IMG/VR virus record: IMGVR_UViG_3300037467_002055
Coordinates: 1 to 64,000 of that record
Strand: one strand, 5' to 3'
Length of the DNA stretch: 64,000 nucleotides
Source of the DNA: a virus
Taxonomy: Duplodnaviria > Caudoviricetes
Within the stretch, counting starts at the first letter, position 1, and each line of letters begins with the position of its first letter. A program made the translations under genes and the position numbers. Shown here in pieces: positions 1,370-23,528 of this stretch. The notes below the pieces were generated by a model. The model did no database searches and was not told where the DNA came from. It saw only the letters and a list, made by a program, of their open reading frames with translations.

Positions 1370-1567
1370 ATGCGACCCTTCAACTTCTCGCGCCGGCCGC
1401 CGTTCCCGCTGCTGCTCCTGCTGGCGTCCCTGCCGCTGGTGCGCGCCAGCGTCCATTACGACGAGATGCGCGGCGACTATCTCGAAAGCGCGCGCAGCCC
1501 GGGCCTCTACTTGCAGGCCTTAGACCTTGCCCAGATGGGCGGTGAGCCCTACGCCGACTGGAATTGA
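1370..1567 (+). CDS. hypothetical protein with hydrophobic N-terminus
   Basis: GGAG upstream; PLLLLLASLPLV segment. Confidence 0.55.
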   Translation: MRPFNFSRRPPFPLLLLLASLPLVRASVHYDEMRGDYLESARSPGLYLQALDLAQMGGEPYADWN

Positions 1568-1586
1568 CATGCACACTGGAGAACCC

Positions 1587-1796
1587 ATGAACAAACCCTA
1601 CGCCGTCATCACCTACGCCGGCCAGCCGATCCCGATGAACGAATTCCGCTACCGCCAGGCCGTCGCCGACGGCGCCGCGTGCGGCTGCGGCGAATGCTTC
1701 GACTGCACCGCCGCCGACTACAACGCCATGGAGGGCGACGCCGGCCGCGAGCGCGACGCCTACAACTTTATCCACGACCGCAAGGAGATCGCATGA
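1587..1796 (+). CDS. hypothetical protein with CGCxxCxxC motif
   Basis: GGAGAACCC-ATG start; Cys cluster. Confidence 0.7.
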   Translation: MNKPYAVITYAGQPIPMNEFRYRQAVADGAACGCGECFDCTAADYNAMEGDAGRERDAYNFIHDRKEIA

Positions 1797-2164
1797 GCAC
1801 TTACGAAAATGGGCCCGGCAATGTGCCGCGCCTGCCCGACCGCGTGGTCGATACCCTGATCGACAGCGCTGGCGTCTCGCGTTGCGCACCCGGCCTCACC
1901 GACAGCACCGTGCGCGACCAGACTGCCAACGTCGAACAGCTCGTGCACGACTCCTGCGAGGAGCTGCTGGCACGCCTGCCGGCCAGCGACACCCGCGACG
2001 CCGCCCGCTACCGCGGCTTGCGCGACGCACTGCTGCGGCACGACACAGGCTTCTTCGAACGGCTGGAGGCAGCCTGCCCGGCGCTGGTGATCGACAACCA
2101 GCTGACGCCCACCGCCAGCGAGTGGGACGCCGCCCTTGACCAGGTGCTGGGGCTGAAGCCATGA
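1793..2164 (+). CDS. hypothetical early protein
   Basis: AAGGAG RBS, ATGA overlaps at both ends. Confidence 0.7.
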   Translation: MSTYENGPGNVPRLPDRVVDTLIDSAGVSRCAPGLTDSTVRDQTANVEQLVHDSCEELLARLPASDTRDAARYRGLRDALLRHDTGFFERLEAACPALVIDNQLTPTASEWDAALDQVLGLKP

Positions 2165-2382
2165 CCTTCCTCACTCTCACCGCACTCAACGGCCCGCGCC
2201 GGACCTACACCATCGAGGTGCGCGCCGCCAGCATCGAAACCATGCACGTCTGCGAAACGCCCGGATACGGCGATGACGTGCACAGCTACACCGTGCTGCA
2301 ACTTGCCAGTGGCAGGGTCAATGTGACCGAGTCGCCCGAGCAAATTCTTGAACTGATCGAAAAGGAGAACACCCATGGGTGA
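2161..2382 (+). CDS. hypothetical early protein
   Basis: 73-aa ORF in overlapping chain; V.ES.EQI..LI C-terminus. Confidence 0.7.
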   Translation: MTFLTLTALNGPRRTYTIEVRAASIETMHVCETPGYGDDVHSYTVLQLASGRVNVTESPEQILELIEKENTHG

Positions 2383-2821
2383 CCGTACCAATGTCAGCCT
2401 GATCGTGCTGACCGAGCAGGAAGATCTTGCCCGAGAACTGGGCGCCGATGACGCTTGCAGCGAATATCAGGACGTCGACCTGGGCGTGACCATATTCGAG
2501 TTCGAGGAGGTCAATTACGCAACCCTCGATTTCGAGGACGACCTGACCGATGCCGGCATCGCGTGGACCAAAGAGTGGGGAGCTGGTGGACTGGATGACG
2601 TGGCCGGCGTTGCGCATGTGCGCTTTACCGAGGCCGGCGATCTGCAATGCATCGAGGTGTACGACGGCGGCGAGAATCCGCCCATCGCCGATCTGCTCGC
2701 GCTGTGCAGCCAGCCTGACAAGTTGGTCCAGTTCATTCGCACCTACTACAAGGACCACACGCCGCTACCGTGGGATCACCAGGCCGGGTATGGCCGGCGG
2801 TATATGGAGAACCAAAAATGA
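2375..2821 (+). CDS. conserved phage hypothetical protein
   Basis: 148 aa, AAGGAG RBS, MGDRT start, acidic. Confidence 0.75.
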   Translation: MGDRTNVSLIVLTEQEDLARELGADDACSEYQDVDLGVTIFEFEEVNYATLDFEDDLTDAGIAWTKEWGAGGLDDVAGVAHVRFTEAGDLQCIEVYDGGENPPIADLLALCSQPDKLVQFIRTYYKDHTPLPWDHQAGYGRRYMENQK

Positions 2822-20849: not shown

Positions 20850-20885
20850 GAAACAACGAGGAGGTGTTGACTCAAGAAAATATTT

Positions 20886-20914
20886 TTGACAGACAACGTA
20901 AGTTTGCTTACCCT
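20886..20914 (+). promoter_or_regulatory. sigma70-like promoter of the replication block
   Basis: TTGACA-17 nt-TACCCT; GTAAG-tttg-CTTAC inverted repeat. Confidence 0.55.
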
Positions 20915-20947
20915 GATGTTCCCTATCCACCCGAAAACAAACCTCAT

Positions 20948-21799
20948 ATGTGGCTCAAAAACGCAACCATCTACGGCATCTCGCCGAAAGCCCAATTCCC
21001 CGTCGAGCAGCTGCAGGCTGCTCGTTTTGTTCCGGTCGACAGCCTGCAGATGCAGTCGGTCGGCTTCTCGCCCGTGCGCGATGACGAACTGGCTTACAAG
21101 CAGGGCAAGCACACGCTGCTGCGCTTCACGGTTGAGAAGAAGCACATCCCGGGCTCAGCCGTGGCCGTGATGCTGGAGGAGAAATGCGCCGAGCTGGCGC
21201 GCGAGCAGAGCTTCCCGCCCGGCAAGAAGCAGCGCAAGGAGCTCAAGGAGCGGATCGTCGACGCGCTGCTGCCACGCGCACTGTCGACGCGCCGCACGAC
21301 GGCTGTCTGGATCGACCAGGACCAGCACCGCATCGTGATCGACTCGACGTCGGACTCGCTGTGCGACGAGATCGTCAAGGCGCTGATCAAGCTGTACCCG
21401 ACGATCGAGTTCCAGGATGCCCGCTGGCCGCGCGCCAAGGTCGTGACGACCTGGCTGGACGACGAGCCGCCCACCCACTTCACGGTCGACGACGCTGTCC
21501 AGCTGCAGTATCCGGGCGAGAAGGGCAAGCGCGTCAAGTTCGACCGGGCCAACCTCGATGCGCACGACGTGCAGACACACCTTGCGGCCGGCGCGTACGT
21601 CGACTCCGTGGCCATGACGTTCTCCAGCCGCCTGTCGTTCATCATGACCGACAACATGCGCATCCGCCGCATCAAGGCGCTGGACATCGTGCAGGAGGGG
21701 CGCGAGGCCGAGAGCGACGTCGACCGGTTCGACAGCGACTTCGCGCTGATGACGCGCGAGCTGGGCTGCCTGATCGACGCACTGGTGCAGGAGGCGTGA
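20948..21799 (+). CDS. rdgC: recombination-associated protein RdgC
   Basis: MWLKNAT.Y start, S.GF.P, EKK.IP, KK...ELKE.I...LLPRA, V..LA..W...L.F, D.DF.LM..EL..L...L. Confidence 0.85.
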   Translation: MWLKNATIYGISPKAQFPVEQLQAARFVPVDSLQMQSVGFSPVRDDELAYKQGKHTLLRFTVEKKHIPGSAVAVMLEEKCAELAREQSFPPGKKQRKELKERIVDALLPRALSTRRTTAVWIDQDQHRIVIDSTSDSLCDEIVKALIKLYPTIEFQDARWPRAKVVTTWLDDEPPTHFTVDDAVQLQYPGEKGKRVKFDRANLDAHDVQTHLAAGAYVDSVAMTFSSRLSFIMTDNMRIRRIKALDIVQEGREAESDVDRFDSDFALMTRELGCLIDALVQEA

Positions 21800-22107
21800 T
21801 GGGAATCCGAGAAATCGGCCCCGTGACCGAAGTCCGGCCGGGCCAGTGGATTTGCGAGACGCCGCTGCTGCGCGACCACATCTGCTCCGAGCCGCGCGAA
21901 GTCGTACGGCGCTCGGGCAAGCGCGTCTACTTCAAGAACCGCCACGGTGAGGACGATGGCGCGTACTGCTCGATCCGCAGCGTTCTCGCCCTGTGCGACA
22001 CGAAGGAGGAAGCTGACACGGTCTATGCCGTCAGCAAGATGCAGTTCGACGAGCTGAATGAGGTGCGCCGCCGGCACCAGGCCCACTTCAAGGCGCTGCT
22101 CGGATGA
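21799..22107 (+). CDS. hypothetical protein
   Basis: GGAGG RBS, TGATG overlap. Confidence 0.7.
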   Translation: MGIREIGPVTEVRPGQWICETPLLRDHICSEPREVVRRSGKRVYFKNRHGEDDGAYCSIRSVLALCDTKEEADTVYAVSKMQFDELNEVRRRHQAHFKALLG

Positions 22108-23192
22108 CCGCTTACTACAACGAATTCAACCCCGCGGCGGCCGCCACGCTGCGCAACCTGATCGCTGAAGGCCTGATTGCGCCGGGCGTGGTCGACGAAA
22201 GGAGCATTGCCGATGTCACACCCGGAGACCTTGCCGGATTCACCCAGTGTCACTTCTTTGCCGGCGTTGGGGGGTGGTCATACGCTCTCCGACTTGCAGG
22301 CGTCCCTGACGGCCGTCGAGTCTGGACGGGCAGCACTCCTTGCCAGCCTTTCTCCTCGGCAGGCGCAGGCGCTGGGTTTGATGACGAGCGGCACCTATGG
22401 CCCGCGTTCCATCATCATGTCCGCGTCGGACGCCCTCCAGAAGTCTTTGGAGAGCAGGTTGCAAGCAACCTTGTCGACCCATGGATCGACCTTGTACAAG
22501 TTGACATGGAAGGCCTGGGCTACGCCTTCGGGGCGCTCGCGTTCCCGTCTGCGGGGTGTGGCGCTCCGCACATCCGTGACCGGTGCTACTGGGGTGGCCG
22601 GCTGGGTGACGCCGACCTCGCGCGACTGGAAGGACTCGGGCGCGGACATCAAGCCGCGTCCGGACAACGGCAAGGAGCGGCTGGATCAGCTGCCGCGCCA
22701 GGCGAACCTGTGTGGCTGGCCGACGCCAATCGCGAAGGAAGCCAAGGCGGGGCTGCACTGCTCGAACCAGGTGACGACCGGCATGGCGGCGCAGCTGGCC
22801 GGCTGGCCGACGCCGCGCGCGGCGGACGGCCACAAGGGCACGGATCCTACGGCGGACACGCTGCGCGGGACGGACTTGCCGACCACGGCCAGCTGGACGA
22901 TCACGGGCCCGGCCCGGTTACGGGCTTCTGGCGAGATGCTGACTGGCTTGCATGCCGGGACGGCAAGTGGCGGCCTGTTGAGCCCAGCACACAGCCGCTG
23001 GCTCATGGGCTACCCCGCAGCCTGGGATCGGGCGTTCCCGGGCTGGCCGAGCTGGCGCGCGTGGCAGGACTTGATGCAAAGTCTCTCGCTGCAGCAAAAA
23101 GCTACCGCGTAGCCGCCCTGCACGGCTACGGCAACGCTATCAACCCGTACGCCGCGGCCGCTTTCCTCAAAGCATTTTACGGAGCAAACTGA
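22104..23192 (+). CDS. C5-cytosine DNA methyltransferase, alpha-type polypeptide (motifs I-VIII and X)
   Basis: FFAGVGGW (I), TGSTPCQPFS (IV), GEQV (VI), GAPHIRDR (VIII), L.GYGNAI (X); no motif IX in this frame. Confidence 0.85.
   Translation: MTAYYNEFNPAAAATLRNLIAEGLIAPGVVDERSIADVTPGDLAGFTQCHFFAGVGGWSYALRLAGVPDGRRVWTGSTPCQPFSSAGAGAGFDDERHLWPAFHHHVRVGRPPEVFGEQVASNLVDPWIDLVQVDMEGLGYAFGALAFPSAGCGAPHIRDRCYWGGRLGDADLARLEGLGRGHQAASGQRQGAAGSAAAPGEPVWLADANREGSQGGAALLEPGDDRHGGAAGRLADAARGGRPQGHGSYGGHAARDGLADHGQLDDHGPGPVTGFWRDADWLACRDGKWRPVEPSTQPLAHGLPRSLGSGVPGLAELARVAGLDAKSLAAAKSYRVAALHGYGNAINPYAAAAFLKAFYGAN
22381..23112 (+). CDS. overlapping alternative-frame methyltransferase beta-type polypeptide
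   Basis: Frame open 22177-23112; three GW(P/V)TP repeats and LSPAHSRWLMGYPAAW (motif IX-like); start uncertain. Confidence 0.65.
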   Translation: MTSGTYGPRSIIMSASDALQKSLESRLQATLSTHGSTLYKLTWKAWATPSGRSRSRLRGVALRTSVTGATGVAGWVTPTSRDWKDSGADIKPRPDNGKERLDQLPRQANLCGWPTPIAKEAKAGLHCSNQVTTGMAAQLAGWPTPRAADGHKGTDPTADTLRGTDLPTTASWTITGPARLRASGEMLTGLHAGTASGGLLSPAHSRWLMGYPAAWDRAFPGWPSWRAWQDLMQSLSLQQKATA

Positions 23193-23528
23193 ATGACCGC
23201 TGGAGTTCTGGGCCCCTGCGCCCGCCGCGTCGTGCGCTGCACGCTGATCACGCCGGCAGGCCACGTTATCATCGGCGAAAACTGGTGCATGAACCCGCAG
23301 CCGGCGTGCCCGCGCGCCGAGGGTGAAGGCTACGAGAAGTGCCAGACGATCTGCAATCAGGTCGGCCACGCCGAGGAGGTGGCCGTGCTGATGGCCGGCC
23401 CGTCCGCGCGCGGAGCGCATGCCTACGTCGAGAACCACACCTATGCCTGCCGCAACTGCCAGGAGACGCTGTTCGCGGCCGGCGTCGCCGCGCTGACCAT
23501 CGGCGCGCCACCATTGAAAGGAGACTGA
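23193..23528 (+). CDS. dCMP/cytidine deaminase-like protein
   Basis: GHAEE and ACRNC zinc motifs; extra Cys cluster. Confidence 0.7.
   Translation: MTAGVLGPCARRVVRCTLITPAGHVIIGENWCMNPQPACPRAEGEGYEKCQTICNQVGHAEEVAVLMAGPSARGAHAYVENHTYACRNCQETLFAAGVAALTIGAPPLKGD

What the first reader, a model, noticed from the sequence alone, without database searches (positions are those of the whole stretch)
22104..23192. C5 methyltransferase split across two overlapping reading frames
The main frame has motifs I, IV, VI, VIII and X, but between VIII and X it reads as low-complexity LADA repeats. The +1 frame is open for 311 codons and encodes three GW(P/V)TP..D/E.K TRD-like repeats (DNA repeat ggctgg(cc/gt)gacgcc at 22600, 22714, 22801) plus the motif IX-like LSPAHSRWLMGYP..W. 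M.EcoHK31I is an established precedent for a beta subunit encoded inside the alpha gene. The three repeats here raise the possibility of modular or multi-specific recognition, and standard annotation would miss the second protein.
Basis: partly seen in the sequence, partly recalled or inferred. Interest (0 to 1): 0.7.

Follow-up and report, generated by a model that had tools for sequence, protein, structure and literature searches.

The report
Two-frame phage cytosine methyltransferase gene
One 1.1-kb phage gene is read in two overlapping frames, giving the catalytic body of a DNA cytosine methyltransferase and a second conserved protein that probably recognises the DNA target; the layout is kept by selection in every related phage examined but is rarely annotated and has never been tested at the bench for this family.

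Summary
Alpha (22104-23192, 362 aa) has C5-methyltransferase motifs I, IV, VI, VIII and X. The +1 frame is open for 311 codons (22177-23112) and carries GW(V/P)TP at 22600, 22714 and 22801, plus LLSPAHSRWLMGYPAAWD.

This is not a GC artefact. All 72 beta-selected and 75 alpha-selected related phage loci keep both frames open, including phages of about 45-50% GC. The third frame stays open for only about 24-55 codons.

A position-matched substitution test shows purifying selection on both frames over motifs IV-VIII and over 22906-23040. Only beta is under selection across the repeat region (22591-22905). There alpha is an unconstrained, disordered linker that is nevertheless always open. Beta has its own AAGGAG-8 nt-ATG start (22213), built from alpha's Arg-Ser codon choice.

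The best reading is a two-polypeptide enzyme like M.EcoHK31I, with the catalytic domain in alpha and the recognition part in beta. That beta supplies the TRD and motif IX rests on weak motif evidence only, and no activity data exist.

Two of the three repeats belong to an invariant core. The third is a cassette that is swapped or lost among near-identical relatives.

Earlier agents of this scan reported the same family on other DNA several times.

The parts
22104..23192 (+). alpha CDS (362 aa): C5 cytosine methyltransferase catalytic chain, motifs I-VIII and X. Its ATG overlaps the upstream ORF's stop (ATGA).
22213..23112 (+). beta CDS (299 aa from ATG 22213; frame open from 22177), +1 frame, nested wholly inside alpha
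22199..22204 (+). Shine-Dalgarno AAGGAG for beta, 8 nt before the ATG, built from alpha codons GAA AGG AGC (Glu-Arg-Ser)
   Evidence: GGAG is present in 37 of 37 loci that pair it with the ATG; 24 loci have neither.
22254..22277 (+). alpha motif I (FFAGVGGW, AdoMet binding)
22335..22355 (+). alpha motif IV (TPCQPFS, catalytic Cys80)
22449..22460 (+). alpha motif VI (GEQV, a variant of ENV)
22569..22583 (+). alpha motif VIII (HIRDR)
22336..22575 (+). beta N-terminal conserved core (LLASLSPRQ...LYKLTWKAWATPSGR...RTS), written over alpha motifs IV-VIII; both frames under purifying selection
22620..22940 (+). alpha linker (aa 173-279, 'LADA' low complexity): no amino-acid constraint, predicted disordered, but always open
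22600..22728 (+). beta conserved core module with repeats 1 and 2 (GWVTPTSRDWKDSGADIKPR...DQLPRQANLCGWPTP), nearly invariant in the family
22729..22800 (+). beta variable spacer cassette (IAKEAKAGLHCSNQVTTGMAAQLA), found in only 9 of 176 relatives
22801..22899 (+). beta repeat 3 = variable cassette (GWPTPRAADGHKGTDPTADTLRGTDLPTTASWT); absent from the close relative L007 and replaced in L006
22906..23028 (+). beta C-terminal conserved core, including the motif IX-like LLSPAHSRWLMGYPAAWD (22975-23028)
22923..22985 (+). alpha conserved segment GFWRDADWLACRDGKWRPVEP, overlapping beta's C-core; both frames constrained
23124..23141 (+). alpha motif X (GYGNAI), just downstream of beta's stop codon

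Best explanation
The locus is an orphan phage DNA (cytosine-5) methyltransferase made of two polypeptides, translated from the same DNA in two frames.

Alpha (frame 0) is the catalytic large domain. It has motifs I-VIII, then a roughly 107-residue linker with no sequence constraint, then a short conserved segment and the motif X helix. The linker exists only so that translation can reach motif X.

Beta starts at its own SD-ATG inside alpha (22213, +1 frame). It runs through 299 codons: a free N-terminal leader, a conserved core written over alpha motifs IV-VIII, a conserved GWVTP...GWPTP module, one or more exchangeable GWxTP cassettes, and a conserved C-terminal LxPxHSRWLMGxPxxW segment.

Beta most likely folds onto alpha as the missing small (target-recognition) domain plus motif IX. 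The heterodimer would then methylate phage DNA to protect it from host restriction.

Shown here: both frames are real coding frames under selection, beta has its own start, alpha's middle is unconstrained, and the cassettes are modular.

Inferred: translation of beta, alpha-beta assembly, beta's role in DNA recognition, and the anti-restriction role.
For: (1) Both frames are open in 72/72 distinct beta-selected loci and 75/75 complete alpha-selected loci. The third frame is open for a median of 24-55 codons. The same holds in phage epsilon15, a Klebsiella phage, Rhodobacter phage RcIroh, cyanophage Cy-LDV1 and Vibrio phage Baybae, whose flanks are 44% GC.

(2) Third-position transversions at 4-fold versus 2-fold codons, 30 disjoint pairs:
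- Beta, 22331-22590: 0.068 vs 0.015, p 1.4e-6.
- Beta, 22591-22905: 0.219 vs 0.031, p 1e-19.
- Beta, 22906-23040: p 0.007.
- Alpha: p < 0.002 everywhere except 22591-22905, where the ratio is 1.0.
The result was replicated on alpha-selected loci aligned by alpha: beta ratio 0.32, p 8e-6. OLGenie-style ratios agree.

(3) Alpha stays open through the unconstrained region in 72/72 loci, against 7.4 expected. So full-length alpha is needed.

(4) SD and ATG are coupled. Alpha's Arg-Ser is coded (A/C)GG AGY, giving GGAG, in 37 loci, and all 37 have the ATG 8 nt downstream. 24 loci have neither (Fisher 2.5e-11, not corrected for phylogeny).

(5) Alpha model: residues 1-172 are folded and match M.HaeIII/M.HhaI (E 5e-7). 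Residues 173-279 have pLDDT about 31. No TRD or motif IX is recognisable in alpha.

(6) Beta's two most conserved motifs score best on E. coli Dcm at its TRD 'TLSARYYKDG' and its motif IX 'RRLTPRECARLMGF', in the right order.

(7) GC by codon position: in 22591-22905 beta's third position is 93% GC, like a normal wobble position in this phage.

(8) Precedent: M.EcoHK31I needs alpha plus a beta nested in another frame (PMC2836561, PMC3404938).
Against: - There is no evidence of translation, assembly or activity.
- Beta matches no Pfam or NCBIfam model, no PDB sequence, and no Dcm profile by hhalign.
- The PSSM scores themselves are not significant against shuffles (P 0.07 and 0.09), and one scan was trimmed after the fact.
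- Beta alone models poorly (pLDDT 60, pTM 0.28), and the fold search gives nothing (Z < 4).
- No natural in-frame alpha-beta fusion was found.
- Beta's first ~40 residues show no amino-acid constraint, so the exact start is inferred.
- Alpha keeps a conserved C-terminal segment of unknown role that might itself supply part of the small domain.
Confidence: 0.7

Rival explanations
1. Beta is a real, separately made protein whose job is not methylation, for example a regulator or an anti-defence factor overprinted on the methylase gene. Alpha alone, using its conserved C-terminal segment, would be the whole enzyme.
For: Beta has no statistically supported similarity to any methyltransferase part. 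Alpha keeps a conserved segment, GFWRDADWLxCRDGKWRPVEP, under selection. Overprinted viral genes often have unrelated functions (general knowledge; review PMC8227390).
Against: Alpha has about 107 unconstrained, disordered residues exactly where C5 enzymes carry the target-recognition domain. All solved C5 enzymes need that domain for base flipping and specificity (established from M.HhaI and M.HaeIII). Beta's motifs map in order onto the Dcm TRD and motif IX. Beta's cassettes vary as specificity modules do.
Confidence: 0.13
2. A single polypeptide is made by two programmed shifts: frame 0 to +1 after motif VIII, and back before motif X. This would recreate the canonical order I-VIII, TRD, IX, X.
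For: The motif order across frames (0, then +1, then 0) is that of a canonical single-chain enzyme.
Against: Beta is under purifying selection upstream of any such shift site, over alpha motifs IV-VIII, and has its own SD-ATG. Alpha stays open through the region it would skip, 72/72 loci against 7.4 expected. No zero-frame stop, slippery run or long homopolymer was seen at the junction on reading the sequence by eye; no systematic scan of the loci was run. Both frames are constrained in 22906-23040.
Confidence: 0.05
3. The +1 frame is not translated. Its openness and conservation are by-products of high GC content and of constraint on alpha or on the DNA or RNA.
For: The window is 67% GC, where long spurious ORFs are common. 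Many other long alternative-frame ORFs are listed nearby.
Against: The same nested ORF occurs in a 44% GC Vibrio phage and in epsilon15. The third frame is closed. Across 22591-22905 only beta, not alpha, is under amino-acid constraint. Transversions that would change beta are 3-7 times rarer than silent ones at sites matched for alpha position.
Confidence: 0.03

Closest known systems
M.EcoHK31I (E. coli HK31, YGGCCR; Lee, Kam and Shaw 1995, as described in PMC2836561 and PMC3404938)
   Same: It is a C5 methyltransferase of two polypeptides. Beta is encoded entirely inside the alpha gene in another reading frame. Alpha carries motifs I-VIII and X. Motif IX is assigned to beta.
   Different: In M.EcoHK31I the TRD is assigned to alpha and only motif IX to beta. 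Here alpha's variable region is unconstrained and the conserved, cassette-bearing sequence is in beta. Here beta also overlaps catalytic motifs IV-VIII and spans about 900 of alpha's 1089 nt. M.EcoHK31I belongs to a restriction-modification system, whereas this is an orphan phage gene with no nuclease next to it. Sequence relatedness could not be tested because no copy of the M.EcoHK31I sequence was available.
M.AquI (CYCGRG), a two-subunit C5 methyltransferase (PMC3404938)
   Same: The enzyme is split within the variable region into two polypeptides that must assemble.
   Different: M.AquI's small subunit carries motifs IX and X. Here motif X stays on alpha and beta is fully nested.
Multispecific C5 methyltransferases of Bacillus phages (SPR, phi3T, rho11s; from my own knowledge, not checked here)
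   Same: They are phage orphan enzymes with several short recognition modules in tandem between motifs VIII and IX. The modules can be added, removed or exchanged.
   Different: They are single polypeptides read in one frame. No sequence comparison was run here. Whether each GWxTP cassette gives a separate specificity is untested.
E. coli Dcm (canonical single-chain C5 methyltransferase)
   Same: Alpha aligns to Dcm motifs IV-VIII (hhalign E 7e-7). Beta's TPTSRDWKDSG and LNPxHSRWLMG motifs score best at Dcm's TLSARYYKDG and LTPRECARLMGF.
   Different: Dcm is one chain in one frame with one TRD. No profile-level similarity to beta was found.

Membership tests
C5 cytosine DNA methyltransferase (PF00145 / Dcm superfamily), alpha chain | Score above the Pfam gathering threshold | tested here: met
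   PF00145 scores 36.8 bits against a cut-off of 22, but only over aa 75-169. TIGR00675 is far below its cut-off.
C5 cytosine DNA methyltransferase (PF00145 / Dcm superfamily), alpha chain | Catalytic motifs I (FxGxG), IV (PCQ), VI (ENV), VIII (RxR) and X (GNAV) | tested here: met
   FFAGVGGW, TPCQPFS, GEQV (EQV variant), HIRDR and GYGNAI all fall on invariant alignment columns. The alignment to M.HhaI covers motifs IV-VIII.
C5 cytosine DNA methyltransferase (PF00145 / Dcm superfamily), alpha chain | Large-domain fold | tested here: met
   The AF2 model of residues 1-172 is confident. Foldseek gives E 5e-7 to M.HaeIII and 8e-7 to M.HhaI.
C5 cytosine DNA methyltransferase (PF00145 / Dcm superfamily), alpha chain | Target-recognition domain and motif IX between motifs VIII and X on the same chain | tested here: not met
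   Alpha aa 173-279 has pLDDT about 31, low complexity and no amino-acid constraint (4-fold/2-fold ratio 1.0). No motif IX pattern is present in alpha.
M.EcoHK31I-type nested two-polypeptide C5 methyltransferase | Beta ORF lies wholly inside the alpha gene, same strand, other frame | tested here: met
   Beta 22213-23112 lies inside alpha 22104-23192, in the +1 frame.
M.EcoHK31I-type nested two-polypeptide C5 methyltransferase | Beta carries motif IX | tested here: inconclusive
   A PSSM of LLSPAHSRWLMGYPAAWD scores best of 453 positions at Dcm motif IX, in register, but the shuffle P is 0.07. Pfam and hhalign find nothing. hhalign also misses alpha's evident motif X.
M.EcoHK31I-type nested two-polypeptide C5 methyltransferase | Alpha carries the TRD | tested here: not met
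   Alpha's variable region is unconstrained. The conserved modules lie in beta.
M.EcoHK31I-type nested two-polypeptide C5 methyltransferase | Both polypeptides are required for methylation | not testable with these tools
   This needs expression and a methylation assay.
M.EcoHK31I-type nested two-polypeptide C5 methyltransferase | Sequence homology to M.EcoHK31I alpha and beta | not tested
   No reference copy of the sequence was available (PMC306636 is not held; no supplement is held).
M.EcoHK31I-type nested two-polypeptide C5 methyltransferase | Partner restriction endonuclease next to the gene | tested here: not met
   The neighbours are RdgC, small ORFs, a phage HNH and an SNF2 helicase. 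The record is a complete 82.5-kb virus genome.
Multispecific phage C5 methyltransferases | Several tandem, exchangeable recognition modules | tested here: inconclusive
   Cassettes are gained, lost and moved between slots among relatives that are about 90% identical, always in multiples of 3 nt. That they recognise DNA is not shown, and they sit on a separate chain.
Programmed ribosomal frameshift gene | A shift site, with the zero frame dispensable beyond it and the new frame unconstrained before it | tested here: not met
   Alpha stays open beyond the putative site in 72/72 loci. Beta is constrained upstream of it. No slippery motif was seen on reading the junction by eye.

The most novel reading that the evidence does not exclude
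Each GWxTP cassette of beta is a separate target-recognition module. One alpha-beta enzyme would then methylate several unrelated sequences. Phages would retarget or widen protection against host restriction by swapping cassettes through recombination at the GGCTGGCCGACGCC repeats. Every swap must keep two reading frames intact, so this would be a shufflable specificity array written in the shadow frame of its own catalytic gene.
Probability: 0.3. Interest if true: 0.8.

Novelty: new variant of a known kind. Interest (0 to 1): 0.62.

Why it matters
Long same-strand overlaps in which both products are under selection are rare in phage and bacterial genomes. Here about 900 nt are shared, and about 400 nt of that is under double amino-acid constraint, including the catalytic motifs of an enzyme.

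The beta family is very large: 9,811 clusters at 50% identity with E <= 1e-3. It has no Pfam or NCBIfam model, and most phage records call only one of the two genes. Methylase annotation, and experiments that clone 'the methylase ORF', may therefore use half an enzyme.

If beta is the recognition subunit, the locus is a natural split methyltransferase with exchangeable recognition cassettes. That bears on phage escape from restriction. It also offers a scaffold for engineered split methyltransferases, which is how M.EcoHK31I has been used (PMC2836561).

Tried and rejected
- Pfam, NCBIfam and PDB sequence or profile searches with beta or its C-terminal piece found nothing.
- hhalign of the beta profile against Dcm, as a single sequence and as a 25-sequence profile, gave only a spurious match to motif IV (E 0.6). 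The method also fails to align alpha's motif X, so this result is uninformative.
- The AF2 model of beta alone is poor (pLDDT 60), and the VIA-align wide search gave Z < 4.
- ESM Atlas gave only unnamed viral clusters and a weak (TM 0.31) viral PF00145 cluster.
- A search for longer, fused forms of beta found 26 hits, none with PF00145 in frame.
- A PSSM scan of beta's N-core on Dcm gave no meaningful placement.
- My first OLGenie-style beta ratio is confounded, because its NN and NS sites fall on different alpha codon positions. I replaced it with the position-matched 4-fold/2-fold transversion test.
- One openness test was run out of phase and was redone.
- Literature searches for this family (Mte8, C-specific methylase, epsilon15 methylase, nested or overprinted methyltransferase) found no functional study. 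The Sinorhizobium phage m5C enzymes in PMC5537653 are a different family of about 700 aa.
- My recollection that actinophage methylases carry in-frame LLPTP repeats was not borne out by the phage tblastn searches.
Full report
**What is there.** The window is part of a complete 82.5-kb virus record. The gene sits in an early/replication block: RdgC (20864-21799), a small ORF whose stop overlaps alpha's ATG, then the methyltransferase. Downstream are a 111-aa zinc-motif ORF, an HNH gene and an SNF2 helicase. No restriction nuclease is present.

Alpha (22104-23192, 362 aa) carries FFAGVGGW, TPCQPFS, GEQV, HIRDR and GYGNAI at the expected spacing. It passes the PF00145 threshold only over aa 75-169 and matches phrog_363 over its full length. 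It aligns to M.HhaI motifs IV-VIII.

The +1 frame is open from 22177 to 23112. It matches two PHROG families annotated as 'DNA methyltransferase' (phrog_1008, E 7e-32; phrog_31772, E 2e-27). The three DNA repeats lie at 22600, 22714 and 22801. The main-frame 'LADA' strings are GWPTP read one base earlier.

**Not a GC artefact.** I collected 80 viral loci through beta and, to avoid ascertainment bias, 80 more through alpha's first 170 residues only.
- All 72 distinct loci of the first set and all 75 complete loci of the second keep both frames open. Beta is open for about 200-470 codons. The third frame is open for a median of 24-55 codons.
- The nested pair also occurs in Salmonella phage epsilon15, a Klebsiella phage, Rhodobacter phage RcIroh, cyanophage Cy-LDV1 and Vibrio phage Baybae. 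In Baybae the flanks are 44% GC and GC rises to 53% inside the overlap.
- Under synonymous shuffling of beta's codons, the alpha frame across 22591-22905 would stay open in 7.4 of 72 loci. It is open in 72.
- Under synonymous shuffling of alpha's codons, the beta frame across 22213-22590 would stay open in 19.7 of 72 loci. It is open in 72.

**Which frame is under selection where.** OLGenie-style ratios on 30 phylogenetically disjoint pairs:

| Region | alpha | beta |
|---|---|---|
| 22213-22330 | 0.15 | 0.87 (not significant) |
| 22331-22590 | 0.23 | 0.46 |
| 22591-22905 | 1.37 | 0.36 |
| 22906-23040 | 0.53 | 0.52 |
| 23041-23109 | 0.30 | 0.77 (not significant) |

The beta ratio compares alpha codon position 2 with position 1, so it is confounded. 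I therefore added a position-matched test: transversions at the third position of 4-fold versus 2-fold codons. For beta, these sites are all alpha position 1 of the next alpha codon.

Beta:
- 22331-22590: 0.068 vs 0.015, p 1.4e-6.
- 22591-22905: 0.219 vs 0.031, p 1e-19.
- 22906-23040: 0.050 vs 0.012, p 0.007.
- 22213-22330: not significant.

Alpha: significant everywhere except 22591-22905, where the rates are 0.025 vs 0.025.

The beta result was replicated on the alpha-selected loci, aligned by alpha protein: ratio 0.32, p 8e-6. The third frame gave ratios above 1.

GC by codon position agrees. In 22591-22905, beta's third position is 93% GC, like the wobble position of neighbouring genes at 86-91%.

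The map is therefore:
- alpha only, over motif I;
- both frames, over motifs IV-VIII;
- beta only, over the repeats;
- both frames, over 22906-23040;
- alpha only, at motif X.

**Beta's start.** AAGGAG (22199-22204) lies 8 nt before ATG 22213. Both are built from alpha's D-E-R-S-I-x-D-V codons. Across 71 loci, GGAG (Arg-Ser coded (A/C)GG AGY) occurs in 37, and all 37 have the ATG. 24 loci have neither, and 10 have the ATG alone (Fisher 2.5e-11, not corrected for phylogeny). In this clade alpha's codon choice therefore serves beta's initiation. Beta's first ~40 residues are unconstrained, so they act as a leader.

**Structure.** The alpha model is confident for residues 1-172 and for the last helix. 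Residues 173-279 have pLDDT about 31. Foldseek finds M.HaeIII and M.HhaI at E 5e-7 to 8e-7 over about 190 columns.

Beta alone models poorly: pLDDT 60, with a helix at 71-90 and a hairpin at 95-117 as its best parts. It finds no fold match. This would fit a chain that folds on a partner, but it proves nothing.

**Is beta the recognition half?** Standard homology tools are silent. hhalign also misses alpha's plain motif X, so it lacks power for short motifs.

Position-specific scans of E. coli Dcm gave two placements:
- Beta's LLSPAHSRWLMGYPAAWD block scores best of 453 positions at Dcm motif IX, RRLTPRECARLMGF, in register.
- Beta's invariant TPTSRDWKDSGADI block scores best at Dcm's TRD motif TLSARYYKDGAEIL. 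It ranks second when the GWV residues are included.

The two placements are in the right order. The scores themselves are not significant against shuffles (P 0.07 and 0.09), and the second scan was trimmed after the fact. I treat this as weak, consistent support.

The stronger argument is indirect. Alpha has an unconstrained linker exactly where every C5 enzyme has its small domain. The only conserved sequence there is in beta.

**The three repeats.** Repeats 1 and 2 frame a nearly invariant module: W131, T133, P134, D138-D141, R149, G153, R156, D158-A164, G168, W169 and T171.

Repeat 3 heads a variable cassette. Among relatives whose flanks are about 90% identical:
- L007 lacks it (minus 99 nt).
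- L006 has another cassette in its place.
- That other cassette sits one slot earlier in L005.
- All length differences are multiples of three.

Family members have 1-6 W.TP motifs. Modularity is therefore real. Multispecificity remains a hypothesis.

**Rivals.**
- *Double frameshift.* A fusion would need neither beta's upstream constraint, nor its SD-ATG, nor alpha's openness through the linker. All three are observed.
- *Untranslated +1 frame.* This cannot explain the region where only beta is constrained.
- *Beta with an unrelated function.* This remains possible (about 13%).

**What is known.** M.EcoHK31I is the published precedent. Its beta is nested in alpha in another frame, and both are needed for activity. 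Its TRD is assigned to alpha and only motif IX to beta (PMC2836561, PMC3404938). I could not obtain its sequence, so shared ancestry is untested.

Some GenBank records already list both ORFs, for example phage K1ind2 ('C-specific methylase' plus 'Mte8-like protein'). Most list one, and PMG1 lists only beta. I found no functional study of this family.

Beta relatives number 9,811 clusters at 50% identity.

Earlier agents of this scan reported the same family on other DNA several times. I reached my reading before seeing those notes and re-tested their claims here.

**Verdict.** This is a typical, intact member of a widespread but under-described family of phage cytosine methyltransferase genes that encode two proteins in two frames. 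Dual coding is as good as proven by comparative evidence. The two-subunit mechanism is likely (about 0.7) but unproven.

Noticed in passing
window 23193-23528 (+): A 111-aa ORF starts right at alpha's stop codon (TGAATG). It has an HAEE...CxxC zinc motif and a sub-threshold hit to dCMP/cytidine deaminase PF00383 (E 0.005, 17 bits against a cut-off of 25). It is a deaminase-like protein next to a cytosine methylase.
   Followed up: partly
L005, L006, L007 against window 22729-22905: Cassettes are exchanged among relatives whose flanks are about 90% identical. L007 lacks cassette 3 (99 nt). A '...CD..R.PAPDF.TKNLTLNHGAVLT' cassette is in slot 2 of L005 and slot 3 of L006. All differences are multiples of 3 nt.
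   Followed up: partly
L002 (Pseudomonas phage PMG1) 1484-2405: Alpha is split between two frames near the DERSI / beta-start site (1484..1624 and 1572..2405). The ORF that GenBank calls 'DNA methyltransferase' is the beta frame. This could be a frameshift mutation or a sequencing error.
   Followed up: no
L169 (Vibrio phage Baybae) 486-1412: GC content rises from about 0.44 in the flanks to about 0.53 inside the doubly coded gene. The gene is also GC-rich (0.59) in epsilon15. Dual coding may itself favour GC-rich sequence, which has fewer stop codons.
   Followed up: no
window 23030-23125: This clade (window, L004, L005, L012) has an extra alpha segment between PLAHGLP and motif X (RSLGSGVPGLAELARVAGLDAKSLAAAKSY). 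Most relatives go straight to ARVGRLRAYGNAI. The insert coincides with a longer beta tail (RAFPGWPSWRAWQDLMQSLSLQQKATA).
   Followed up: no
window 22104-22107: Alpha's ATG overlaps the stop of the upstream 102-aa ORF (ATGA), which suggests translational coupling. That ORF has no family hit.
   Followed up: no
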